64,000 nucleotides of DNA from Lingula anatina (lineage: Eukaryota; Animalia; Brachiopoda), in assembly GCA_051362555.1 (NCBI GenBank), contig CM120641.1, positions 35,594,401 to 35,658,400 of the forward strand. Direction: 5' to 3'. Position 1 is the first letter of the stretch; every line of letters begins with the position of its first letter. Below are positions 612 through 61,926 of this stretch, piece by piece. The notes beneath the pieces are model-generated. The model did not search any database. It was not told where the DNA came from and was given only the letters and a program-made list of their open reading frames with translations. The position numbers and the translations under genes were made by a program.

Positions 612-720
612 ATTGGTCCGATGGATCTGTCGAGGACAAGCACCAATCAAAGTAGCCGAGACATTTTTATCAATTATTAATTTAGCTAGCACGTTTATTG
701 GATACCGGTGCATATACTAA
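612..720 (+). promoter_or_regulatory. Candidate ELOVL promoter: CCAAT boxes and a TATA-like element
   Basis: ATTGG 612-616, CCAAT 643-647, ATTGG 697-701 and CATATACTAA 711-720, all just upstream of the ATG at 777. Confidence 0.4.
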
Positions 721-776
721 AGGGGGAGGCAAGAAACTGGGACTCTGTTACAACGAGTAGACAGTCACCACCGAAA

Positions 777-1580
777 ATGACACTGAATTACTCTGTCGTG
801 TTCGAATTTGAACGTCAGTATGACGACCATACCTTTTGGGAATGGATGAAGGAGAACTGGACACTCTGTTATGTGTACTCAGCGGTGTACGTGGTGCTAA
901 TTTTCGGTGGAAAATGGGTGATGGCCCGTCGACCGCGCTATGACTTGCGACCCTACTTGGCTCTCTGGAGCGCAATGCTAGCCATATTTAGTATATGCGG
1001 CACTTTGAGAATGTGGACTGAGTTGATTTATTCCGTCACCAATTACAGTTTGCAATATGCCATGTGTGTGCCCAGCTATTACACAAGGGAAGTAGCAGGC
1101 TTCTGGTCCTTCTTGTTTGTTGTCTCCAAGGTGGTGGAACTAGGCGACACTGTGTTTATTGTGCTAAGGAAGACCCCCCTAATCTTCTTGCATTGGTACC
1201 ATCATATCACTGTCCTCATCTACGTGTGGGCAACTTACACTGAGCATGCTGCTTCTGGAAGAATGTTCTGTACCATGAATTACACAGTTCACTCCTTCAT
1301 GTACACCTACTATGCTCTGCGTGCCTTGCGCTACAACATTCCAAAGTGGGTGAATATCATGATAACCTTGATGCAGTTACTGCAGATGGTGATTGGTGTT
1401 GTGATTAACATTTGGGTATACCAGATCAAGTCCCGCGGTGAACCATGTCAACAGAGCTGGGATAACTTGAAGTACGCATTTCTAATGTATTTCAGTTACT
1501 TTGTGCTCTTCGCAAACTTCTTTTACAATGCCTATCTGAAGAAGCCTTTGCATCACCATGAACAGAAGAAGCAGCATTGA
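777..1580 (+). CDS. ELOVL6: Very-long-chain fatty acid elongase, ELOVL3/6 family, intronless CDS, 267 aa
   Basis: ELO motifs SKVVELGDT, FLHWYHH (HxxHH), MNYTVHSFMYTYY and LQMVIG; several hydrophobic segments; C-terminal KKQH dilysine ER signal. The track ORF starts at a GTG (708); the first in-frame ATG is at 777 (aaaATGa). Confidence 0.95.
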   Translation: MTLNYSVVFEFERQYDDHTFWEWMKENWTLCYVYSAVYVVLIFGGKWVMARRPRYDLRPYLALWSAMLAIFSICGTLRMWTELIYSVTNYSLQYAMCVPSYYTREVAGFWSFLFVVSKVVELGDTVFIVLRKTPLIFLHWYHHITVLIYVWATYTEHAASGRMFCTMNYTVHSFMYTYYALRALRYNIPKWVNIMITLMQLLQMVIGVVINIWVYQIKSRGEPCQQSWDNLKYAFLMYFSYFVLFANFFYNAYLKKPLHHHEQKKQH

Positions 1581-6531: not shown

Positions 6532-7180
6532 TGTGACCAAAGTTGCCTTCAGGGTTATGAGGGTCCAAGCTTAGGGCCACTGTCAGGGTTAGCCAAAAAC
6601 TTATAATTTACTGCCTTACATACAATTTCTTGGATAATAGATAAATCTTCAGTGCTCCCTGCGACTTACTTTCTTAGCATTTACACAAATGACATCATAC
6701 CAACGACTTTATTTTGGGGTAAAAATTTAAAAATCTGTTTCTCCAATTTCTGCTTTACCTGATCACCTTCAAATGCTGTTCCAATACCAATTAAATGACA
6801 GCAGTTAATACTTCAAAACCCTGCCAGTGATTTTTTCTTAAATGCCTTAGTTCAGATTTTATCATTCATGTGACCCACAGGTTGCCTCCAGGGTTACGAG
6901 GTTGCAAATTTAGGGGCACTGTCAGGATTAGCCAAAAACTTTTTATTCATTATTACTGCCTACAGACAATTTCTTGGATAATAGATAAATCTTCAGTGCT
7001 TCCCAACTTCCTTAGCATTTACACAAATGACATCATACTGATGACTTTATTTTTGGGTAAAAATTAAAGAATCTGTTTCTCATATTTCCCGGTTACCTGA
7101 GCCAATTTAATGACGGCAGTTAGTACTCAAAACCCTGCCAGTGACTTTTTTTAATGCCTAAGTTTAGATTTTATCATTTA
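6532..7180. repeat. Diverged tandem duplication, two copies of about 310-340 bp
   Basis: About 6532-6868 and 6869-7180 share blocks such as TTTCTTGGATAATAGATAAATCTTCAGTGCT, CTTAGCATTTACACAAATGACATCATAC and CAAAACCCTGCCAGTGA. Confidence 0.9.
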
Positions 7181-7298
7181 TCAAGCAAATAGTGCCTTTG
7201 CTTAATGAAAATATGTAATAAGAAGCCCAAATCTCCATAACAAAAACTTTAAACCAAAGTGATGGCACAGGATTGAAGCCCATACATTAGCCATCCCC

Positions 7299-37546: not shown

Positions 37547-40500
37547 ATGGCGGCCCCCATAGAAGGCCGAGCGCGAAGTTCAAAAAGTAGGTCTTTTCCT
37601 TTGTACACGGTAGATGCTTTTACCAACAAACCGTTCGCGGGTAACCCTGCAGCAGTGTGCCTGGTAAAACATGATCAGGTAAGATTTTGAGCATTGCAAA
37701 CTCGTTTTATTGGACAACATCTGGACCGGAGAATTGAATGACAAGTGCATGTCACTGTTTATCACTGTTATTATTAAAGGTACATACGAACGTGGATTCC
37801 CATTTACACATATTCCCACTTCTACTAGCTTCTTATACGACTCAAATAAATTCGACATGCGAAGGGATAAACTGAATAGATCACTTGATCAGCCGTAAAA
37901 GAGCTTTAGACTGCTCCATGGGGCATAACTTCATCCCTGAAGAAGACAGAGTATTTGGGCTACAATCTTGTGCCATCATTTTGGTTAAAATATTTTTGTT
38001 TTGGAGATTTTCATTAAACACAGGCAGTATTTTGCTTTATCAATGATGTAATCTGAACTAAGAATTTTAAGAAAAATTGCTGGCAGCATTTTGGAGCACT
38101 AAATGGTGTCTTTTAGTTTAAATTGGTGTTAAAATGGTGTTTGTGGGTGCTCAGTTAAAGGAAAAATTAAAGGAAAAAGTTTTTATCCTGAAATTGCAAT
38201 TATCACCTGTAAGATGACGTGTGTAAATGTTAATTAAATATAGTCACTGAACATGGAAGATTTATCTATTACCCCAAAGAATGTATTTAAGGCAGTAAAT
38301 AAGGAGTTTTGAGTAAAGGGTGAAAATATCCTCAACAGTGTTAATTCTTACAGTCTGGCTGACAACGCACATCCTAGTAATTGGCAAGTCCACCAGAAAT
38401 GGGGTAAAACAACTAAAAATACATGGTGGATTACATATACTTCTACGTTAAAGTTGTCATAATTTATTCGATGATATCACACTTCTCAGTGCTTGACCGC
38501 TTGTGTCAGGGAGGATGAGCTATTTATCTGGTTGATTTCCCTTGTCGGCCTTCGTAATTAACTGCTGCACACCTTGTTAAGAGATAAAATCTATCTAACT
38601 GCCAATCGTTATCTGTGATCAGGAATCTTACAGCAGTAGATTGCAAAGACTCATTTGCTTACCTGGATGAGCATAATATTCACATCTCCTCAAAGAGAAA
38701 GTCCTCAGGAAGCAACTGATTTTATCAAAGAAGGTGTCAATTGTACTTAAAATGTTGACGTTGCATTGTTGGCAAAGTGAGGGGAAAACTTTAGCTGGAT
38801 TATACTGTTACTGTTTTTCTCTGAGTCGCTCATACACCAGTGATGCAGGTACAGATTAAAGCAAAATGGTGAAAGCTTGCTGTGTACCAGGCTGCACTGC
38901 CAACACATTTTTAAAATCTGATAGGAATTTTTTTTTTCTTTTAATTTCCAAAGATGAACAGAGGAGGGAGCAACAGTTACAGGCTATAGGTCATGCACAT
39001 GTGACAAAAGATGGTGTTGTTGATCAAAACAAGATTTGGTCTCCTACTACTCCTACTACAAGATTTGGGTATGCATTTTGTAAAAGCTGTAAATATATCT
39101 ATCTAAATCAATTAGCTAAGGAGTAAAATCGGGGAAAAAAGTTGACATAAATTAGGAGACCTTTACTTGTCAAATAACATAACTTTATTACTGTTTGTTA
39201 TTCAATTAAAAAAAAAATGTGTTTTGAAACTTAAAGGTTTTGTCTTCCAGGCTATTTCAACAACTTTCGTACCAGAAAATTGCACATTAAAATTGTATTT
39301 AATATCAAGCGTAGCTGCAAATATAAATACTGGAAATACCAATGTCTTCTCTTTGAAAAGGTTGGCAAGCTAGTTTTTATGCTGTCCTCCCAGGCTTGCA
39401 TTAATACATGTATACAGGCCAAAAGTAGCCATGGGACTGAAGCCAAAGCCTTGATAACATGCTCCCACCCCATTCCCTCTGGCTTTACCAGCACCAGGTG
39501 ATTTAATCACAATTTGTGTTAATCTTATAATAATGACAATTATTCTACTAGTAATTACTTCTCAGTGCTGCACATTTTTCAAGCTTCCAAATGTTCTGCA
39601 TTTGAAAAAATGCCATTTTATTTCGGTAATGACACATACTATTAGGGTTGACACTTGGGTATGCAGTTTAGGTCCCTTTTATGCCGTATACCCAGTAACT
39701 TGGCTGCATTTATGAGGACCCTGTTGGAAGATTTTCAGTCGGGTCACTATATGATAGTCACAGCTAATGCAAGTTTAGAATTAGTATATGTATGTTATGA
39801 ATAATTTAGGAAGTGACATTTTTTCTTCAAAGTTAATGGTTGCTTTGAATGAGATATTGTTTTACCAGCAGTAGCAATAATGTTCTGCATTTGAAAAAAA
39901 TGGCATTTTATTTTACCACCACATGTACTATTAGGGTTGACACTTGCTTATGCAGTTAAGGCTGGTCTTATCCCATAACCAGTAACACAGTAGCTAATTA
40001 CCAAGGCCTTTACTGATTTTGAAGAATGTATATCTACTATCTGAATGATATAAGTAAAAATAACAGTAAAATTATGTTTAGCGAGCATGTTTCTCTCAAT
40101 TCAGGCTCTTTAATACTTTGCTTTCTTCAAAGCTCTCCCAGCATGCCTGTTTACCCAATTAATAGATCTCCCAAAGACCAATTAGTCTTCATTTCTGACT
40201 GAATGTCTATTTTCCTTTTTTGTTTGTCACAAACTGATAAAGATGGGTCTCTTGTAAAGCTTTGCTTTATTCATTGTAGATTTTGCCATTTATGTACATG
40301 TATGTATTTTTTAATCAAAGCATTAGATACATAAAGTCTTAAGTACAACTAATAGAATTATAAAATCTTGACAAATCGTTGAACAGAGCTACTTTGTTTA
40401 AATGTTTATTATAGTTTTTTTTTTTTTCCATACAGGTTCTTGATGATGAAACCATGCAGAAGCTAGCAACTGAAATGAACTTATCTGAAACAGCATTTGT

Positions 40501-41244
40501 AAGGACCCTTTCTGCAACAGAAGATTTTCAGTCAGGTCACTATATGATAGTCACAGCTAATGCAAGTTAAGATTTAGTATATGTATGTTATGAATTATGC
40601 AGTGACACATTTTTTCCCTGAAAGTAAATGATTGCTTTGCAATGAGATGTTGTTTTGCCGTCAGTAATGATATATTTATTTTTACAAGCAACACAGTCAA
40701 GCAGGTCTACAGGTTGTAGATGTAATCTCCTTTTAGCATTTTGAAAACTCGGAGATCATTTCTGCCACTTGTTTTGCTTGGTCTGGACCTTAAGCATATT
40801 ATTTGGGAGACATTTTTACTATTACTCAGCTAGACAATTTTTTAAGATAAATCAGTTGTTTCTTTGCATTTAACTAGGTAGCAGATTTGGTCTTCGCTGG
40901 ATGACACCTACCAATGAAGTGGCTCTGTGTGGGCATGCTACACTTGCCTCTGCAGCAGTGTTGTTTTTCTGTTTAAGTAAGTGACTTGTTCATCAGTGTA
41001 TTGCATAGCATAATTCTACGCAATATCTGTCCTCAGTTTCAGAATTAACACGTCATTTTTTTTTTAATTTTCAAAATTTTCACTTGCTACTATTGCAGTA
41101 GTCAGGGTCTAATAAGTGTGAATGTATGTAGATTTGATTATGAAAAAAAACTGTCACATGACTCTTAATGTAGGATGTTTTGTCCACTTTTACAACTTTT
41201 TCCATTTATTATATTTATTTTTTTTAGTTATTCATTTATTTATT

Positions 41245-41280
<36 letters not shown>

Positions 41281-41680
41281 TTGAGTTGCATTGTGTAATC
41301 TGACATCAGATATTTCAGGCATATTGAAAAAAGAGGGAAAAAAAAGAAATGCTGGTGGAGCACAAAATTGATTTCATATGTGTTTGTTTACTTTCAATGC
41401 ATCATCAGCCTATACTGGCTTCTACAATCCTTATCTATTACAGTGATCTAGTTAACAATGTTAATTAACCCCAAAAAGATCCAATGCATTAACCAAGAGA
41501 AATCCAATGATATTATATTGAATTTCTATAGAATATCGTATTGGAGTCCTATACGAATTTTTTTTATGGGCTCCCTACAGTAGTCGTACAGGTAATTCGC
41601 CCAAGTTCCAGTAGGACTCCTGAATGAATCCCTTCATATTTCTGATAGGACAGTCGGTTTTCTTAATGAAATTTCTGTGG

Positions 41681-41712
<32 letters not shown>

Positions 41713-44700
41713 GAAAATTTATTAGGAAAACTTATCAGCAGCTGAAGTTGTCAGCATAGGAACTGAAAGCCACTGGTTAAATTTGAAGACTAGTATCAAC
41801 ATTTAAATGTTAAGTCTAGTGTGTAATTTTCTCTCAAAATAACCCTTCCTGAGTTGACCTGTTTGACCTTGAATATTATTTTTTTCAGATAATCCTTCTC
41901 CTGAGTTGACCTTTGTGACCTTGAGTGGTGAGTTGAAGGCCAGAAGATGTCATCCATTTGTCAGCCTTGACCTTCCTCTCAACAGTTGTGAACCTGAGGT
42001 ATACGAAAACTGGAACTGTCTCTCCATTAAAATTGTATGGAATAAGAAAAAGAAGTCAAAATAATTAATTTGTTGATACATGCATGGTCTGCTTACACTC
42101 TTGCCAGTTAATTGGGCTTATCTTTTGACGTGACTCTTCAGAGCCACATACAGCCACATAACCAAATGTAATTTGACCAACAAGCCACTTAATGTTAACA
42201 TATGAAAGAAAGCAAGGTTTAAATAGAGATGGTTTTATAGAAATCCTGGTGAAAAGGTGTGATTAAACATGTGACCTTTGATCTTTTTCTGCACCTACCT
42301 TGCACTACTGACTGGTTTCTGTCTTTTCATATATGAGAAGCTTGTTGACTAAGTTACACTGAGCTAAATGACCTTATGTGCCCTTGAACAGCCATGTAGA
42401 AAGATAAAGCCCAAGTTTAACTGTCATCTGCATCAGTTGTAGGAATAATGATGCGAGTTAGATTTGTCCTTTTTACTTACTTATTTGCTTCTTTTTGTGT
42501 ATATTTACACAGTACAAAGCAGGTAGACCTAATGACACAGAACACATGGCTTAATAGTAGTAGAAATACTTTTTTGTCGCAAACTAATTACAAAATTTAA
42601 TCACTTACATGAAATATTTTGATGGTCCAACAGCCTTGTTCATTAAAGAGTACTTCTACTAGACTACTGCTATCATCCACCAAACTGATAAAAAATTTTA
42701 AACATTGTCTGGCTTTATAAAGTCCAAGAGTTACCTTTGGAAAAGAAAACTATATTTGGTTAAATTCATCAGGTTGAAGGGATGGATTAATCCTTTCTCT
42801 TATTTTCAGGCTGTGAATGATGCAGAGGAATTGATCAAGGTATGCCGTTTGTTTAACTTTAGTTCTTTATTTTCTGAGTTGAAATGGGGAAGTTGAATTT
42901 AAATTTAATGCATAAAGTTGTTTGTGAAGTGTGACTGAAAGGACTACACTCACATGGCTTTTTATATTCAGGTTAAGATGTGGTATTCAGGCATTTGTGG
43001 GCTACAATTCTGTAAATAAATTACATATACATATTTATAAAGCAAGTATACAGGTATAGTTCTTCATAATCTCAGAGTTGCCTATAGGATAGAAGATAGT
43101 CATCAAATGCATAGACTAGAAGTTTTTATACTTTCAACTAAGTAACATTACCTGAAAATCAAAGGAAGTAATGTATAGAATTTGCCACCTTGTTACAGCT
43201 TGTTAAGTTGCCTACCAGATGCCCAAATGATCTGTTAATATGATGGTGCTGGATATGACAATGTGGTAGTTGTGACAGTGACAGAAAATAACTTTGATGT
43301 TGCAGTTAACAGTGAATTCTCTACCAGTCAAGGAAGTGCAGTATTCAAGTACTACAAAGAAACTTTTGGTGTGCCTTGAAAACGGCGTCAGCAGGTAATT
43401 GTGTTACTGTCACACCTATCATGTGGCCACATCTAACGCACTTACATATAGCTCACTTGAGTATCACCATCTGTCATAAAACAGGCTACAGTGGCAAACC
43501 TGTAGAACATCTGAAGCAGTGGTATTCTCCTTTGTTCACATTAGCATATTTTACAGCCAAGTGAATTGTAAGTCTGACAATGAACTTGGCCTGTTGCTTA
43601 TGTGACCCCAACACCCTTTGACATTAACAGCTAAAGGGTTGCCCTATTAACTAACACGGCAGATCTGAACCCCAAATCACAAAAGGTTTCTAGATTTTCT
43701 AATCCCCCTATGTTGTTTTCAGTTAACGATAGGTGGTTTTGCTGTGAAAGAACTTCAGCACTGTGCTCATACTAAGGATTTGTTGATACTCTTAGAAGAA
43801 AATGTAACAAGGTATTCTTCTGCTGGGAACACATATGTATCTGTCAGCAGAATTTAACACAGTGTCTCAGCTAACACATCAAGGTATCATTTCATCAGTT
43901 ACAGATATATTTTCCCCACATTTCTATACTGAAAAAAGCAGTACTAAATGATTGCAACCACCACAGTTTTTCCTTAAATTTGCCAAAATGTGGAATTACA
44001 TGCAGTAACATAGAAATATGTTACAGTTTGCAAGATCCACAACTTCATAGGCTAGACATTTTGTCTTTTCAGACTACAGCTAGAGAGCATGCAGCCACAT
44101 GTAGATCAAATGATTGCCACCCACAATACAGGACGTATAAAAGGAGTGATTGTAACACTAGGAGGTTCTGAAGGCAATGGTTGTGTGGACTCAAATGGAA
44201 AAGTGTATGATTTTGTGTCTCGCTATTTTGCACCCTGGAATGGGATAAAGGAAGACCCTGTCACAGGTAATCTCCAGCTAAAAAAAAAACACTAATAAAT
44301 CAGCCTAAATAAAGCTTTAACACAGCACATTCTTCAAATTTCTGGCCATAAACTTGACCAACTTATCCCTCCCTCCAGTTCATAAGTCTGTCAAATGAGA
44401 AAGTAATGTATGATGCCTAACTGCAACACGAACGATAGCATGATTATTCAAATGACTGAGGGTTAGCAGAAAATATTTGTTCAAATATCATTTTTTTTCA
44501 GGAAATGTGAAACAATACCCTTTGGTATTTCTTTAAGCAGGGCTTTTTGAAACTATGTGGGGGCATTTGGTCAGGTTTTGTAGTAAAGGTTTGACACGTC
44601 AACTCACTTCAAATGCACCTTTAAAGCACATATACATTAAAATGCTGTAAATTTTGTAAATGCAGCTAATGAAATGCCTCATGTTTTTAATATCATGAGA

Positions 44701-45906
44701 GGTGAAGTAATGTCATCAGGTGTTATTCACATGTTATATATTCATCTTTGGTCTTCCTAGGGTCAGCACACACTGTCCTGTCCAGCTACTGGTCAAAGAA
44801 GTTGGGGAAGAAAGCACTTTACGGTTAGTACACCAACTTATTTGTGCAAAAGAGAGTCAGATACTTTGCAAGCCCATTTATGTAATATACTACCCAGTAT
44901 ATAGCATAACTATATACTAGCAATTCCATTAGTAACTCTGAGCCTTACTTACCATCATATTACTGACACTTTGCTCATCTCACAAACTGGACCATGCTGA
45001 ACAATTTTATGCTATCTCATCTAATGGTTACTTCATAGCATTTCCCTCCTCCATAACTTCTTTCCCACTCTGTCATTTTTCAATCTCTTCCTATTCCATG
45101 AGACTGGAAGACAAAAAGCAGTCATACCTCATACATGTATCTGCACTACTAATTTAGGTTTTCTTATGTCTCACCATAAACCTTATAAACTGCCGACACA
45201 AATGCACATAAGAAGTCCTTGTTTTACTAGCATTATGTTTGAACAAATTCAGATTAGCCAAAGATTAGCCATTTGCAAACTGAAGCCTCAGATTTGTGAG
45301 CACGAATGCCCAAATTAACAACTGGAGGCTTGATTTCATAGCACAAATGTAAAATTAGCATTTGATTTTAGTTTCAACATTAGTTTTCTTGTTATTGCAT
45401 CTACATACATCTACAACTTATTTCAAACTCTTACAAAAAGGGCTGCTTTTTTGTGTTTGCATTGACACTAATGCTCCACTTGACCGTAAAAAGGCCTCTG
45501 TAATGAGTTTTGCAAGGAATTTTTGCCAATTGTAGTTGTAAAATAGAGAAAAAAATGCCATCCCTTGTTAAACTAGATTTTATTGCATATACTTGACTTA
45601 ATCTGCAATTATACCAGTCCTTGACTTGCGACATGAAATGCATTTACCTTTCATACTTGCAAGCATGATATTATAAAGAATTGATGGTCATAATTAAATT
45701 TCAAATCACACCTAACACATTGTAATTGGTTTCACTTGTTGACACGATTATTACATTAAGTATATCTGAAACTGCTTTAATTTTTAATTACAGCACGCCA
45801 GTGTTCACCAAGAGGAGGTGACCTCAAAATTCAAGTAAGAGATGACGGTAGAGTTGACATTGCAGGAGAAGCTGCCATAGTCTTGAGTGGGAACATCTTT
45901 ATCTAG
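37547..45906 (+). CDS. PBLD: Phenazine biosynthesis-like (PhzF/PBLD) domain protein, about 309 aa
   Basis: Exons 37547-37678 ([16 protein letters not shown]), 40436-40535 (EMNLSETAF), 40878-40976 ([19 protein letters not shown]), 41889-41998, 42810-42839, 43306-43394 (or 43723-43811), 44073-44266 ([21 protein letters not shown]), 44761-44823 (SAHTVL), 45794-45906 (QCSPRGG...*). Phase-consistent GT-AG. Confidence 0.95.
38866..39075 (+). pseudogene. Degenerate THAP-domain ORF, remnant of a DNA transposon, in PBLD intron 1
   Basis: [13 protein letters not shown]...[14 protein letters not shown]...WSP matches the THAP N-terminus (C-x4-C, KD..RR...AI, W.P), but the conserved W and the closing C..HF are lost. 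Confidence 0.6.
39590..40668 (+). repeat. Decayed tandem duplication spanning the 3' end of PBLD exon 2
   Basis: Block A at 39590-39699 and 39879-39986. Block B (GAAGATTTTCAGTC(G/A)GGTCACTATATGATAGTCACAGCTAATGCAAG...) at 39715-39878 and 40502-40668. Confidence 0.85.
43723..43811 (+). CDS. PBLD: PBLD alternative exon 6b, mutually exclusive paralogue of exon 6a (43306-43394)
   Basis: 89 nt, phase 0 to 2, acceptor ttgttttcag, donor AG|gtattc. Translates [30 protein letters not shown] versus 6a [30 protein letters not shown]. Confidence 0.85.
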
Positions 45907-50509: not shown

Positions 50510-51490
50510 TCAATGCCGTCGTCTCGCTCTCCCCTCTGCATTGATAGTTTTCGTACACAGTTCTACACATTCCTGAAAGTTCAATCCTTTTTGGTCTTCG
50601 CTGTAATCCATATCGGCCAAGCGGGCCAGAGACAAGATATAACTACAAGCTATTCGCAAAATTGCTAGTTTTGAAAGTTTTTGGTTATTGGAATACGACG
50701 GCACAGCTCTGCGTAGTCTCTCAAATGCTGCGCTTATCGTGTGTACGCGCGTGCGTTCGCGGGCATTGGCCTCCACGCGCCTCTCTCGCGTCATATTTTT
50801 GTAATTTTTCCGTCGTCTTGAGCCGTGTTTTAACCCTAAGTCGTCGTCATAATCTTCAGCCTCGTCATCTTCACCGGCGTCTGCTGCAGGATACGTAGTC
50901 CTTGCCGTCTCCACCGCAGCTGAATTGGAAGCGCTAGACGTCGACTGCGACCGTCCCGTAGCACGCGACGACTCGCCCTCAGCACTTTTATCGTTTGGAG
51001 GTGCTATGCTCCTTTGGAATAGATTCATTGTAGAAAGAAGTGCAGGGTGGGGGTATCCGTACATGCCAGCATACTGCGGCGGAAGATAAAACTGGAACGG
51101 CCATCCCCCGGGATACGGAGGTACCCGACCGAGAGAATCTGGACTTAACGATCCGGGGTGACTTGGGGGCGTAGGGCCTGAGTGTGCTGGTGAGGGTATG
51201 GTTGCTTGTCCAACATGGCCCCCAGGGACTACCGTGCCTTTAACAGTCTCCCCCGCACGTGAAATAATCGTCGCCCTCTGCTCATACCCTGGGCTGGCTC
51301 TGGCTGGGCTTGGTGGGCTTTGACATAACCTCTTTACGCTAAAGTCAGTTGTGCGTCTCCGAGGCTCCTGTAGCTTACGCTTGTTTTTCCTAGAATCTTC
51401 TGTCGCCTCGGAGGATTCGGACACGGTCCGGGATTTAGTGGACAGGTCTAGAGCTTGAGGCTCTGGGTCGAACTTCGTCGCACTTGCCAT
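50510..51490 (-). CDS. ATOH8: Atonal-superfamily bHLH transcription factor, ATOH8/Net family, intronless, 326 aa
   Basis: bHLH YKNMTRERRVEANARERTRVHTISAAFERLRRAVPSYSNNQKLSKLAILRIACSYILSLARLADMDYS is diagnostic of Net/ATOH8. N-terminal ALDLS is CtBP-motif-like. Pro-rich linker. Confidence 0.95.
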   Translation of the reverse strand: MASATKFDPEPQALDLSTKSRTVSESSEATEDSRKNKRKLQEPRRRTTDFSVKRLCQSPPSPARASPGYEQRATIISRAGETVKGTVVPGGHVGQATIPSPAHSGPTPPSHPGSLSPDSLGRVPPYPGGWPFQFYLPPQYAGMYGYPHPALLSTMNLFQRSIAPPNDKSAEGESSRATGRSQSTSSASNSAAVETARTTYPAADAGEDDEAEDYDDDLGLKHGSRRRKNYKNMTRERRVEANARERTRVHTISAAFERLRRAVPSYSNNQKLSKLAILRIACSYILSLARLADMDYSEDQKGLNFQECVELCTKTINAEGRARRRH

Positions 51491-51508
51491 TGTTTGGCAT
51501 GCGAGTGA

Positions 51509-51566
51509 AAGTGATGTCTGAGTTTCAGCTGCCGTTACTTATACTGCCCAGCTTAACGTGACGTAG
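51509..51566 (-). promoter_or_regulatory. Candidate core promoter of ATOH8/net
   Basis: TATAAG on the minus strand at 51538-51543, Inr-like TCACTT about 30 nt downstream, CRE-like TGACGT at about 51559-51564. Confidence 0.45.
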
Positions 51567-57800: not shown

Positions 57801-60800
57801 AATTGTCATGTTACTTTAACATAGTTGTATGCGCAAGTCGGCAATGACAGTGCCATTTTATGATATAAAATTTACCTCTGTGTGTTCTAGAAAATCTACA
57901 TGAGGCACAATCACACTCAAACTCATCATCAGCATCATTTTCAGTGCTATCACTGCTGGTGCTGTCCTCTATTGGAGGGTTATACAAACTAGCCGCACTA
58001 AATGTTGACTGTTCTAGATCTGTGGAACTCTGAAAAAAACAAAAGACATTGTATGGGATAAAAAGGTAAATTTTTCACCAACAACTGGGAAATAAAACAT
58101 AAATATATATATATAATACTGACAATTTGTCAAAAACCAATCAAATATGCATAGCATAAAATAGGACACATCTACCAGACAATGGCAGTTTATTAGAAAT
58201 TATATATCAACATAATAAATGACAATACTGTCCAGATCAGTAATTTACAAAAATATAATGCACTGACTTCAATATGTCAGTAAGTTGATGCACTCCTCCC
58301 CCCAACATACACAAACCTTTGCCCTTTGATATCCTGTTAATCCCTATACCAGGTTAAGCCATCATCTAAAAAAGGGGGCTATAAAGGAAATTGCATGTGG
58401 GGAATGCATCAAGCATCTGCTTCTTGAAAGGAAGTGTTTTTGCCCCTTTTTTTTAAAATCTGATCTGAATGCAGTTTATTTAGTACATTACATGTAGGTA
58501 TGAAACTTTGAGTGTCTTAGGTATGATACTAACGCTGTCTGAAATGACTAGAGGCGGTGGGGAAATCCTGCCTGACAAGTTGCCATGTTGGTTTAAACTG
58601 ACATCACTGGAACACTGAGCGTGTGTGGATGTAATGTCGCTTTCATAGCTGTGATCTGTCAACGCTGGCATACTGCAAGCTGAAGAACTACTCACACTTC
58701 CAACTTCTGATGAGATATCTATCAATTCTGGGACTAAAAATGGATAAAAATATTGACAATATCAAGACCTTATTCAAAACAGCTATGGGCTTACAACTGA
58801 AATATTGAAGAATTTTTTTCTTATTTACAATAAACAACACAAACACACAGAACAGCTCTAAAATATTTAGGTTGGTCAACCATTCCAAAAGCAAATGTAT
58901 TAATTTTCATATAAAATTATTTTAAAGCTGACACTGTCTTAAGCTGCACCAAAACATAACAATTTGTTAATAGCATAACTGTAGATTGGTATAAAATATC
59001 AACTCTAACCTCCTCTCTCACTGGATGCGGACGTTGAACTGTCTGACATTAGGGGAGGCACATCATCAAGGCACCAATCTTGATACAAAGTGTCCACCCA
59101 GGGGTTGCTATGAATGTTGCTAGGATAGTTGCCAAGTTGATTGCTAGTTGCATGACTACTGGGGCCAGGCCTCCAATTTGGATTGTTTAGGGAAAATTCC
59201 CCATTTCTGGAATGACACTTTGGCATCACCTTGTCTTGGAGATAATTTGTTTTCATTTTGCTGCTTGTCTTTTTCACCTTAGAAGAAAGCAAAGCAGTAT
59301 TTTCATAGTCATTGTGTCTACCATCACTTTCACTGGAACTAACCAAAACATCAGGTCCACAGAGAGAAGACACTTGGTTCAGATCTACAGGTGGCTCTTT
59401 GTGCCTTTTGTTAAAAGTTTGGGAAATTCCTTTTTCTAAATGTTTCAGTGGTTTCTTCTTTTTTCTCTGAGTCTTGGAATGTTGTAACGCAGGCTCCTTT
59501 TCTACTGGAAAAGTTAGAACTTCTGAACCAGAATGCAAATTAGGAGTAACATTATAACTCCTACTAGCACCTACATTTGGAATAAAAGAACTTTTACAAG
59601 GAGCAACATGCTGTTTTGTAGTAGCACCCATCGAACTGGTAACTGGAGCCTCATGAGCAGTTTTTAAAGATGGGGAAAAATGATTTTCATTGTTTTTCTT
59701 TTGCACATGTTTTGGCACTCTTGGAAGTTTGTTTTTCTTTGCATGTAGCAGCTTGTGATTCTTTTCTACTAATTTTTCTCTGTCAATATCTGAACTTTCA
59801 CTGGAGCGATCTAAGTTTCCCACCAAACCATCTACAGATGGAGGAATTTTTAATATGCTACTTTCTGACTTACTGCCTTTTGGCATTGACTTTTTGCTCT
59901 TATGCTGTCTTTTAACTGCTGTGCTTGGCCAATTGGCATCTCTATTTTCCTCATCTGAATGCACCAGGCTGTCTGATGTCCTACCCTCACTTGAACCTTG
60001 ACTTGTTTTGGCCCGCACTAAAGCGAGAGCATTTTTTACTGTAAACTGCCCATTTTTGCCATCTGGTGGTGATTCCCTAGTCCTTTCCCTAACTTTCTGT
60101 AAAACTTTGGCTGCAGTAGCATTTTTCAAAACAGGGAATCTGGCCATAGCACCATTAACTGAAGACTTTTCCTCAATCTTTCTTGGCTCAGAAGCTAGAC
60201 TATCTTGTAGCATCAAATTCATGGGGTCTTCCTCCTTTTCTCTATCATCCAAACTGTTTTTACTGTTTGACATTTTCATCCCGACTTGATTTAAAACATC
60301 TTTAAGAACAGCTCCAGCCTCACGCCATTTCTTAAGTTTGGTCCTTTCATCAGTTGTGTCAGACTCTTCATCCTCATTAATACTAGGAGCTTTTTGAAAA
60401 TCCCCATTAAAATGGGTTAGATGAGGCAGGGAGACATTATTGTCTTCTGTCACATTCTGTGGCAGTTTTGGCCTAGCACCCCTATGGACATATTCTAGGT
60501 GTGCTTGGGAATACTCCTTTACATTAGGTGGAAGACATCCATCACATTCCTGACCTGATAAAGGCAAGGTATTGGGCACGTCTTCATCGAATGTATTTTC
60601 ATTCAGCTCTGTCATTCTCTTTGGACCTTGTAAACTCTGTGCAAGGTGTGGCATAGAATTTGCCTCGCCTCCATTCAATGTTTGAAAGTGTTTGACAAGC
60701 GCTTTGTTGGACCTGTTTTTGGAACTGCATGAGGCATCCTTCACACAATTTTCATCTGATGCGGTTACTGTTACTGGGTCACTTTCCTCTGATGTCACTG

Positions 60801-60891
60801 GGACTGTGTCACTTTCTTCTGGTGTTAATGTGAGTGGGTCACTTTCATCCGATGTAGCTTTTTCAGCATTGGCACTTGAGGTGGTTCCCAT
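54884..60891 (-). CDS. PJA2: Praja-like RING-H2 E3 ubiquitin ligase with a long disordered N-terminus
   Basis: Exons 60891-59010, 58733-58534, 58029-57876, 57728-57644, 57095-56993, 55892-55772 (PPPADQQAINNLP), 55395-55280 (CPIC...LPCLHIFHPLCIQAWLIK), 54919-54884 (SGTCPVCRHVL*). Phase-consistent. The C-terminus matches the Praja/RNF126 group; SGTCPVCR and the giant first coding exon favour Praja. Confidence 0.8.
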
Positions 60892-61926
60892 GATGCAACT
60901 GGACAAGTATGTCCTTATCTAAAATGTAAAACAATAAATCATACATCAAACAAAATACTACTAGATCAGTAAGCATCTGTCATAAACAATGCATCTTTAA
61001 AAACTAAAGGTATACTGCAGTCATGACAATGTCTAATTTATGTTTCCCTTGGTTGCAAAGTTTCTTTTATCATATGTACATATTCATAAGCAAGAAAACC
61101 TAAACTTAACTTGACAGAGCAATCTTGACAGAGCTATCAGAGCAATCTCACCAACAAAAGCTTTGAGAGAAACTTCGGGGTCCAGACATGAAACACTGTT
61201 TTAGATCTGTATATCTGAACATGTATAATGGGATAAAACACTTAATCTTGACCCTTGAGAATTGAATTAACAATCTCAGAATTCTGTGATTCTGCACAAA
61301 AAGCTAATGTTGGTTGTAATGTCTGGGGCCTTTGAGTGCAAAAGGGTTCAAACTCTACATGCGCCTTGAACCAGATTACATCTCTGCTCTGAGGTTTAAT
61401 TGCTAGGCCCCTGCAGCTAGCGACGGCGCATGTGGAGGCAGGGAGCATCAGGAATAAGCGGCATCCCTTTTGACCTATGGTTGGCCATATTTTGTTGAAG
61501 GATCAGTAAGCACAAGGATCATCCATTCTGAATGGGGCCTAACAGGTTTAAATCAGAATACCTCGTCCTGGCATCTAGGCATGGAATTTGGCATAAGGAA
61601 CTGTAACTGTTAGTCACGCTCGGCTGTCACCTTGATTGGATAGTAAACGGTTGTCGTAAAATCGCTAAATGATATTAAAACCCGGTGCATAAACTTGAAA
61701 ACCACCTAGGACAACCTTTCACTGCCACATTAATCCAATACAATGCAAAAATAAACTATAACAAGTGGTTAAAGCCTTCAAACCGAATGTCGTAAAGTCC
61801 CCATATACCTCCATAGAGACAATAAAATAGAGTCAGCTTGTGAAACAAGAAGCCACAATTTTAAACATAATAATCGAAATAAAATACTGCCGGGCATCGG
61901 AGCGGCCTAAAACTTGGCACGCTTAC

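What the first reader, a model, noticed from the sequence alone, without database searches (positions are those of the whole stretch)
43306..43811. Mutually exclusive duplicated exon pair (6a/6b) in the PhzF/PBLD gene
Seen: two 89-nt exons, 43306-43394 and 43723-43811, each with a good acceptor and donor, the same 0-to-2 phase and no stops. They align without gaps ([30 protein letters not shown] / [30 protein letters not shown]), with 12 of 30 residues identical and many conservative changes, while the flanking introns show no evident similarity. Inference: including both or neither shifts the frame, so they must be mutually exclusive. Retention of frame and splice sites despite deep divergence implies selection on both. 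This would give two versions of part of a diaminopimelate-epimerase-fold enzyme whose animal substrate is unclear (e.g. TKKLL versus TKDLL). I know of no such switch described for PBLD.
Basis: partly seen in the sequence, partly recalled or inferred. Interest (0 to 1): 0.8.

Follow-up and report, generated by a model that had tools for sequence, protein, structure and literature searches.

The report
Recurrent exon switch in orphan enzyme
A lamp-shell gene for an enzyme of unknown substrate (PBLD) splices in one of two duplicated exons, and mussel, amphioxus and starfish isoforms swap the same segment, each time replacing a lysine predicted to line the active site, so one gene likely makes two enzymes with different pockets.

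Summary
Confirmed, and wider than first read. The window is Lingula PBLD. Exons 6a (43306-43394) and 6b (43723-43811) are 89 nt each. Across 8 RNA runs, 42 junction reads use 6a and 117 use 6b; no both-in or skip joint was listed, and either would stop early. RefSeq already holds both isoforms.

New here: RefSeq isoform pairs of Mytilus, two Branchiostoma species and Acanthaster differ only in this block. One copy always keeps the animal-consensus K176; the other has D, N, D or E, plus S171 to C/T. Coral and hemichordate gene duplicates show K versus N or T. K176 aligns, through one intermediate protein, to PhzF His155, reported near the ligand. D is the majority state in close bacterial relatives (53 of 79). 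Exon trees favour separate duplications, but one origin is not rejected (AU p 0.35 and 0.11). A predicted intronic stem clamps exon 6a (0 of 500 shuffles as stable). No substrate or activity was tested. It works like the coq-2 substrate switch; my searches found no paper on it.

The parts
37547..45906 (+). PBLD / PhzF-family gene: 9 exon slots, 309 aa with either exon 6 (e1 37547-37678, e2 40436-40535, e3 40878-40976, e4 41889-41998, e5 42810-42839, e7 44073-44266, e8 44761-44823, e9 45794-45906)
   Evidence: Pfam PF02567 at 188.5 and 193.3 bits against a cut-off of 27. The e1-e2 joint was not listed and rests on the RefSeq protein match
42810..42839 (+). exon 5 (30 nt), common upstream exon
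   Evidence: junction reads
43306..43394 (+). exon 6a, animal-consensus copy (S171, K176); minor form, 42 of 159 junction reads; RefSeq isoform X2
43360..43362 (+). codon for K176 (aligned to PhzF His155)
   Evidence: sequence
43723..43811 (+). exon 6b, derived copy (C171, D176); major form, 117 of 159 junction reads; RefSeq isoform X1
43777..43779 (+). codon for D176
   Evidence: sequence
43261..43286 (+). upstream arm of the predicted pre-mRNA stem, 45 to 20 nt before the 6a acceptor
   Evidence: prediction only
43399..43424 (+). downstream arm of the predicted stem, starting at +5 of the 6a donor; 24 pairs, 4 of them G-U
   Evidence: prediction only
44073..44266 (+). exon 7, common downstream exon; a second AG precedes 44080, with no listed use

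Best explanation
Lingula PBLD mRNA carries either exon 6a or exon 6b, and the swap is predicted to change one wall of the active-site cleft (K176 to D, S171 to C), so the gene likely makes two enzymes with the same catalytic residues but different substrate preference. Shown: both forms are spliced; both keep E62, H97, D248 and S253; isoform pairs in mussel, amphioxus and starfish differ only in this block and always pair K with D, N or E. Predicted: the exon encodes a beta-hairpin (strands 165-171 and 176-181) and residue 176 sits where PhzF His155 sits. Inferred: a basic wall suits an acidic substrate group, and an acidic or neutral wall suits a basic or neutral one. Inferred: the duplication arose separately in several lineages, and corals and hemichordates reached the same pair of states by whole-gene duplication. 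Inferred for splicing: an intronic stem loops out 6a so that 6b is the default, and both-in or neither-in messages are removed by nonsense-mediated decay.
For: Junction reads 42 versus 117 in 8 runs. Isoform pairs with 16-20 differences inside the block and 0 outside: Lingula, M. californianus, B. floridae, B. lanceolatum, A. planci. K176 in 44 of 45 unpaired rows of my 91-row invertebrate-weighted alignment; A copies KKKKK, B copies DNDEE; position 171 SSSSS versus CCCTT. In B copies of four lineages, 16 of 20 conserved cells at the hairpin tip (170-176) are changed against 2 of 24 further along the strand. Without column 176, which defines B, it is 12 of 16 (Fisher p 2e-5); A copies change 2 of 16 there. 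K176 aligns to a His of a Streptomyces homologue, which aligns to PhzF His155; PMC4586147 lists His155 near the ligand and loop 150-153 around the active site (passages). D is the commonest residue there in close bacterial relatives (53 of 79; N 7, K 5) and in the two nearest solved structures, 1s7j and 4dun. Gene duplicates pair K with N (Oculina, Pocillopora, Porites) or T (three hemichordates). Both isoform models have mean pLDDT about 90 and the same hairpin. Stem: duplex -46.6 against -29.5 kcal/mol shuffled, 0 of 500; none of the 7 other internal exons stands out; z -2.99 on the sense strand, -1.58 on the antisense strand.
Against: No activity or substrate was measured, and no solved PBLD structure came up. 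The His155 match is a two-step sequence alignment at low identity; I had no coordinates to measure. Position 176 is not fixed in apparently single-copy vertebrate genes: N in ten bird entries, and Q, G or Y in three others, among 216 rows. B residues differ (D, N, E), which also fits loss of constraint. One shared origin of the B exons is not rejected (AU p 0.351; 0.114 with columns 171 and 176 dropped), and 28-30 columns resolve little. The 6a share does not differ significantly among runs (chi-square p 0.10), so regulation is not shown. I did not see the tandem exons in other genomes; they are inferred from annotated isoforms. The stem is untested for conservation, 7 of 1809 window-wide pairs are as stable, and a competing partner that would exclude 6b is weak (5 of 100 shuffles).
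Confidence: 0.6

Rival explanations
1. The exon pair is real, but the B copy gives a folded, catalytically weak or dead isoform that sets enzyme dose or serves non-enzymatic scaffold roles.
For: B changes concentrate on residues conserved in A and differ by lineage (D, N, E). Coral N-type paralogues also change the catalytic E62 to D. Human PBLD has signalling roles such as STING stabilisation (PMC12822414, abstract start and passages).
Against: 6b is the major form in Lingula (117 of 159 reads). B isoforms keep E62, H97, D248 and S253. D matches the bacterial majority state. Sea-star and sea-cucumber B exons remain 20 of 31 identical, more alike than their A exons at 9.
Confidence: 0.2
2. Same switch, but one ancient origin: the exon was duplicated once in an early bilaterian and one copy was lost in vertebrates, most molluscs, nemerteans and chelicerates.
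For: The same exon limits and the same two positions change in four phyla. AU tests do not reject one B clade. B exons of amphioxus and echinoderms share one extra residue.
Against: The free tree needs 4 changes, and 0% of 200 bootstrap trees have 1. Mytilus B sits inside a starred clade with scallop, oyster and mussel A-type exons (98/96; 99/95). Lingula B is closest to Lingula A (14 of 30, against 7-9 for other B exons). No swap was seen in the oyster, scallop, gastropod, Lineus or horseshoe-crab entries listed, though missing annotation is not absence.
Confidence: 0.3
3. Neutral redundancy: a short, frame-compatible exon duplicates easily, and both copies drift while giving equivalent proteins.
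For: No significant difference in usage among runs. Position 176 varies in some vertebrate genes. 6b carries an H/Y difference at residue 170 between sample sets (43759 C>T).
Against: Both copies stay open at dS about 2. Change is one-sided, with A keeping the consensus tip and B remodelling it in all four lineages (12 of 16 versus 2 of 16, p 0.001). Both echinoderm types persist across sea stars and a sea cucumber.
Confidence: 0.15

Closest known systems
coq-2 exons a/e, the ubiquinone/rhodoquinone switch (PMC7434440; abstract start and passages)
   Same: Mutually exclusive exons in a metabolic enzyme; one copy keeps the consensus and the other changes two residues near the substrate; found in several invertebrate phyla, with single versus repeated origin unresolved.
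   Different: Different fold and phyla (here brachiopod, mussel, amphioxus, echinoderm). The coq-2 substrate change is tested; the PBLD one is not. Here gene duplicates in corals and hemichordates parallel the switch.
Tandem duplicated exon substitutions / homologous MXEs (PMC9741552, PMC7954323; passages)
   Same: Homologous, frame-equal, exclusive exons; fold kept; variable residues near functional sites; frequent convergence between phyla.
   Different: PBLD and 'phenazine' occur 0 times in the main text of either paper (supplements not searched). The cases described there are mostly channels and membrane or structural proteins of model species.
PhzF / diaminopimelate-epimerase-fold family (PF02567; 1s7j Z 34.0, rmsd 1.7, 260 aligned; PhzF 1u1w Z 29.1, rmsd 2.7, 262 aligned)
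   Same: Two-domain fold; E62, H97, D248 and S253 match PhzF E45, H74, D208 and S213 by motif.
   Different: PhzF has His at the switched site and a known substrate. Animal PBLD has K or D/N/E/T, and I found no substrate for it in the papers searched.
RNA-structure-controlled MXEs, docking/selector and bidirectional pairing (PMC6071210; abstract and outline only)
   Same: Intronic complementarity flanking an alternative exon.
   Different: Only one strong stem (around 6a) was found; a competing selector is not established.

Membership tests
Tandem duplicated mutually exclusive exons | Two adjacent homologous exons of equal frame | tested here: met
   89 nt each, 13 of 29 residues, 0 of 100,000 shuffles
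Tandem duplicated mutually exclusive exons | Each exon is spliced to both common neighbours | tested here: met
   18, 39, 24 and 78 junction reads in 8 runs
Tandem duplicated mutually exclusive exons | Neither both-in nor both-out in mature mRNA | tested here: met
   No such joint listed at a threshold of 3 reads from 2 starts; both forms stop early via the used acceptor
Tandem duplicated mutually exclusive exons | Tissue- or condition-regulated choice | tested here: inconclusive
   6a share from 1 of 24 to 6 of 14 by run; chi-square p 0.10; tissues not given
PhzF/PBLD family (PF02567) | Pfam score above cut-off over the whole domain | tested here: met
   188.5 and 193.3 bits against 27
PhzF/PBLD family (PF02567) | DAP-epimerase-like fold with Glu/His/Asp/Ser active-site set | tested here: met
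   Model matches 1s7j at Z 34.0, rmsd 1.7, 260 aligned; E62, H97, D248, S253 present
coq-2-like substrate-switch MXE | Swapped residues line the active site | tested here: inconclusive
   Two-step alignment to PhzF His155 plus literature; no coordinates measured
coq-2-like substrate-switch MXE | Isoforms differ in substrate or product | not testable with these tools
   Needs enzyme assays
Competing-RNA-structure MXE (docking/selector) | One docking site with two competing partners | tested here: inconclusive
   Strong stem around 6a (0 of 100 shuffles); second partner at 43980-44020 is -23.5 kcal/mol, 5 of 100 shuffles
Competing-RNA-structure MXE (docking/selector) | Conservation and covariation across species | not testable with these tools
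   No related animal genomic DNA was available

The most novel reading that the evidence does not exclude
Animal PBLD has two distinct catalytic jobs set by one cleft residue, and evolution has rebuilt the pair at least six times: by exon duplication in brachiopods, mussels, amphioxus and echinoderms, and by gene duplication in corals and hemichordates. The isoform pairs are natural matched mutants that point straight at the specificity residue and at the still-unassigned substrate of human PBLD.
Probability: 0.35. Interest if true: 0.82.

Novelty: new member of a known kind. Interest (0 to 1): 0.63.

Why it matters
Human PBLD is studied as a tumour suppressor and antiviral regulator and is called an isomerase (PMC12822414, passages), yet my searches found no substrate for it. 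Here one gene yields two proteins identical except for about 30 residues, and the same residue flips in four phyla. That gives a ready comparison for substrate screens (K form against D/E/N form, with bacterial D-type relatives as a bridge). It also adds a cross-phylum case of splicing retuning a metabolic active site, which the coq-2 authors call rare.

Tried and rejected
No whole genome is held for the window. No indexed RNA holder was listed; raw-read runs were added by species label. The metagenome scan, meant to find animal genomic copies, kept 80 loci that look prokaryotic (uninterrupted matches at 37-44% identity) and read 2 of 64 parts. Steric exclusion rejected: the 6a-6b intron is 328 nt and branch-like sites lie 24-99 nt before 6b. 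Assembly artefact or pseudo-exon rejected: reads support both exons, and both RefSeq loci carry both isoforms. Tandem gene copies rejected for the five pairs with 0 differences outside the block. The Apostichopus pair is weaker: it comes from two annotations with 31 differing columns outside the block. Isoform sets without this swap: Lineus, Limulus, Tachypleus X1/X2, Argopecten, Ptychodera. AU tests rejected none of the tested groupings (p 0.351, 0.114, 0.122, 0.452). One search's first frame test used wrong exon limits and was redone. Literature searches: PBLD + mutually exclusive + exon (10 papers, listing only, none on this by title or abstract start); (20 of 75 listed); PBLD + epimerase (5); 1; 15 of 676 listed, none holding 'phenazine biosynthesis-like'; 15 of 442 listed, none holding PBLD. 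PMC8142540 held none of my terms. Supplements were not searched and could list PBLD. Earlier scan findings: none returned. That PhzF His155 equals DapF His159 is recalled, not tested; PMC3581254 lists His159 as catalytic and PMC8225329 lists Asn157 as substrate-binding (passages). A link to rhodoquinone through 3-hydroxyanthranilate, which PhzF binds (PMC5524880, passages), was considered and left as speculation.

Full report
Identity. Exon 7 matches Lingula anatina PBLD (RefSeq XP_013415993) at 100% over 64 aa. The window differs from that record at a few residues elsewhere, so it is another individual or assembly. The gene runs 37547-45906 and gives 309 aa with either exon 6. Both isoforms score far above the PF02567 cut-off.

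Observation. Exons 6a (43306-43394) and 6b (43723-43811) are 89 nt, bounded by AG and GT, and share 47 of 89 nt and 13 of 29 residues; 0 of 100,000 shuffles do as well. Flanking introns show no similarity above shuffles, and dS is about 2.1 with dN 0.61, so the duplication is old.

Splicing. I laid 8 of 9 listed RNA runs, reading 6-30% of each. Junction reads: e5>6a 18, e5>6b 39, 6a>e7 24, 6b>e7 78, so 6a is 42 of 159. No 6a>6b or e5>e7 joint reached the listing threshold. Both-in stops at 43724 and neither-in at 44169, 345 and 161 nt before the last junction; by established knowledge these are decay targets. A second AG before 44080 would keep a skip-both form in frame, but no such joint was listed. 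Usage ranges from 1 of 24 (X8) to 6 of 14 (X7); the spread is not significant (p 0.10) and reads are not independent. RefSeq has X1 (6b) and X2 (6a) at both of its two Lingula loci.

Which copy is derived. Against 121 homologues, 6a carries the consensus Y170, S171 and K176 (83, 85 and 81%), while 6b has H, C and D (1, 8 and 3%). The derived copy is the major one.

Other phyla. Of 25 clusters opened and the hits of two searches, isoform pairs of M. californianus, B. floridae, B. lanceolatum and A. planci differ at 18-20 columns inside the same block and at 0 outside. A Branchiostoma hybrid shows the same pair, and Apostichopus shows both types in two annotations (31 outside differences). In every pair one copy has S171/K176 and the other has C or T at 171 and D, N or E at 176. 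K176 holds in 44 of 45 unpaired rows. Isoform sets of Lineus, Limulus, Tachypleus, Argopecten and Ptychodera do not show the swap. Separately, duplicated genes pair K with N in three corals and K with T in three hemichordates; the coral N genes also have D for the catalytic E62. Against this, ten bird entries have N and three other entries Q, G or Y at 176. I could not view these other genomes, so the tandem exons there are inferred from annotation.

Where the change falls. AlphaFold models of both isoforms (pLDDT 90.2 and 90.3) give the same hairpin, strands 165-171 and 176-181. The 6b model matches PhzF-family structures (1s7j Z 34.0, rmsd 1.7; PhzF Z 29.1, rmsd 2.7). K176 aligns to the His of a Streptomyces homologue, which aligns to PhzF His155 (numbering counted from the printed alignment). 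PMC4586147 (passages) lists His155 among residues near the ligand, and loop 150-153 around the active site. B copies remodel the tip of this hairpin (12 of 16 conserved cells without column 176) and spare the rest of the strand (2 of 24); A copies change 2 of 16 at the tip. In 79 of 80 metagenome loci that yielded an ORF, the site is D in 53, N in 7 and K in 5, and it is D in 1s7j and 4dun but K in YddE. So both states exist in bacterial relatives. That the swap changes specificity is inference; no assay exists here.

Origin. Trees of the 28-30 exon columns (57-58 rows picked from 91; near-duplicates left out) need 4 changes for the B label. Mytilus B nests in a starred clade with scallop, oyster and mussel A-type exons; sea-star and sea-cucumber B form one clade (100/98); amphioxus B groups with amphioxus D-type paralogues; Lingula B is nearest Lingula A. 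AU tests do not reject a single B clade (p 0.351, 0.114). I put repeated origin at about two in three.

Splicing mechanism. The longest of 32 inverted repeats between exons 5 and 7 flanks 6a. It folds as a 24-pair core, 43261-43286 with 43399-43424, at pair probability 0.99. The duplex is -46.6 kcal/mol against -29.5 for shuffles (0 of 500), and none of the other 7 internal exons stands out; 7 of 1809 window-wide pairs are as stable. It folds better as pre-mRNA than as antisense (z -2.99 versus -1.58), and the 6b region has z 0.11. The arms cover the usual branch-point zone and donor position +5 of 6a. The 6a acceptor is also pyrimidine-poor (0.40 versus 0.75). Both fit 6a being minor. What excludes 6b when 6a is chosen is not settled: the candidate partner at 43980-44020 is marginal (5 of 100 shuffles) and lies where 4 reads of X8 show about ten substitutions.

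Comparison and verdict. It is a member of the tandem duplicated MXE class by the three sequence and splicing tests. It works like the coq-2 a/e switch (PMC7434440, passages), but the defining assay is missing. The isoforms are in RefSeq as automatic models; my searches found no paper describing the event or its recurrence, within a library limited to open-licence papers and without supplements. New member of a known kind; interest 0.63.

Noticed in passing
window 39706-39873 and 40493-40666; 39590-39699 and 39879-39986: A 178-column, 83% identical copy of the 3' end of PBLD exon 2 with its donor and downstream intron lies in intron 1, beside a second local duplication (80%). No joint using it was listed.
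   Followed up: partly
window 42810-42839 (exon 5) and homologues P0056, P0230, P0186, P0166: The 10-residue exon before the switch is skipped in annotated isoforms of Limulus, Tachypleus, Argopecten and Mytilus; no skip joint was listed in Lingula.
   Followed up: no
proteins P0018, P0037, P0032 (corals); P0184 (Ptychodera X3): Coral paralogues with N176 all have D in place of the catalytic E62; one Ptychodera T176 isoform record does too.
   Followed up: partly
window 43759, 43316, 43384: Coding differences in reads: 43759 C>T (H170Y in 6b, back to consensus; all covering reads of X8 and X9), 43316 A>C and 43384 G>A in 6a. Strain differences, not shown to be editing.
   Followed up: partly
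proteins P0036, P0038 (B. floridae X3, X9): A third, short replacement of the same block gives 280-aa isoforms lacking the hairpin.
   Followed up: no
proteins P0065, P0066, P0071, P0073, P0074, P0083, P0117, P0121, P0122, P0128: Ten bird PBLD entries have N instead of K at the switched position.
   Followed up: no
window 37816-37917 and 38039-38310: Intron 1 holds a highly transcribed repeat fragment (reads on both strands running on into unlike sequence), with a related inverted copy near 6596-7282.
   Followed up: no
window 690-1580 (+), 50510-51538 (-), 59005-60918 (-): Other long open frames: a fatty-acid-elongase-like protein, a bHLH (atonal-type) protein and a 637-aa low-complexity frame; the labels are my recognition, not from a call.
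   Followed up: no
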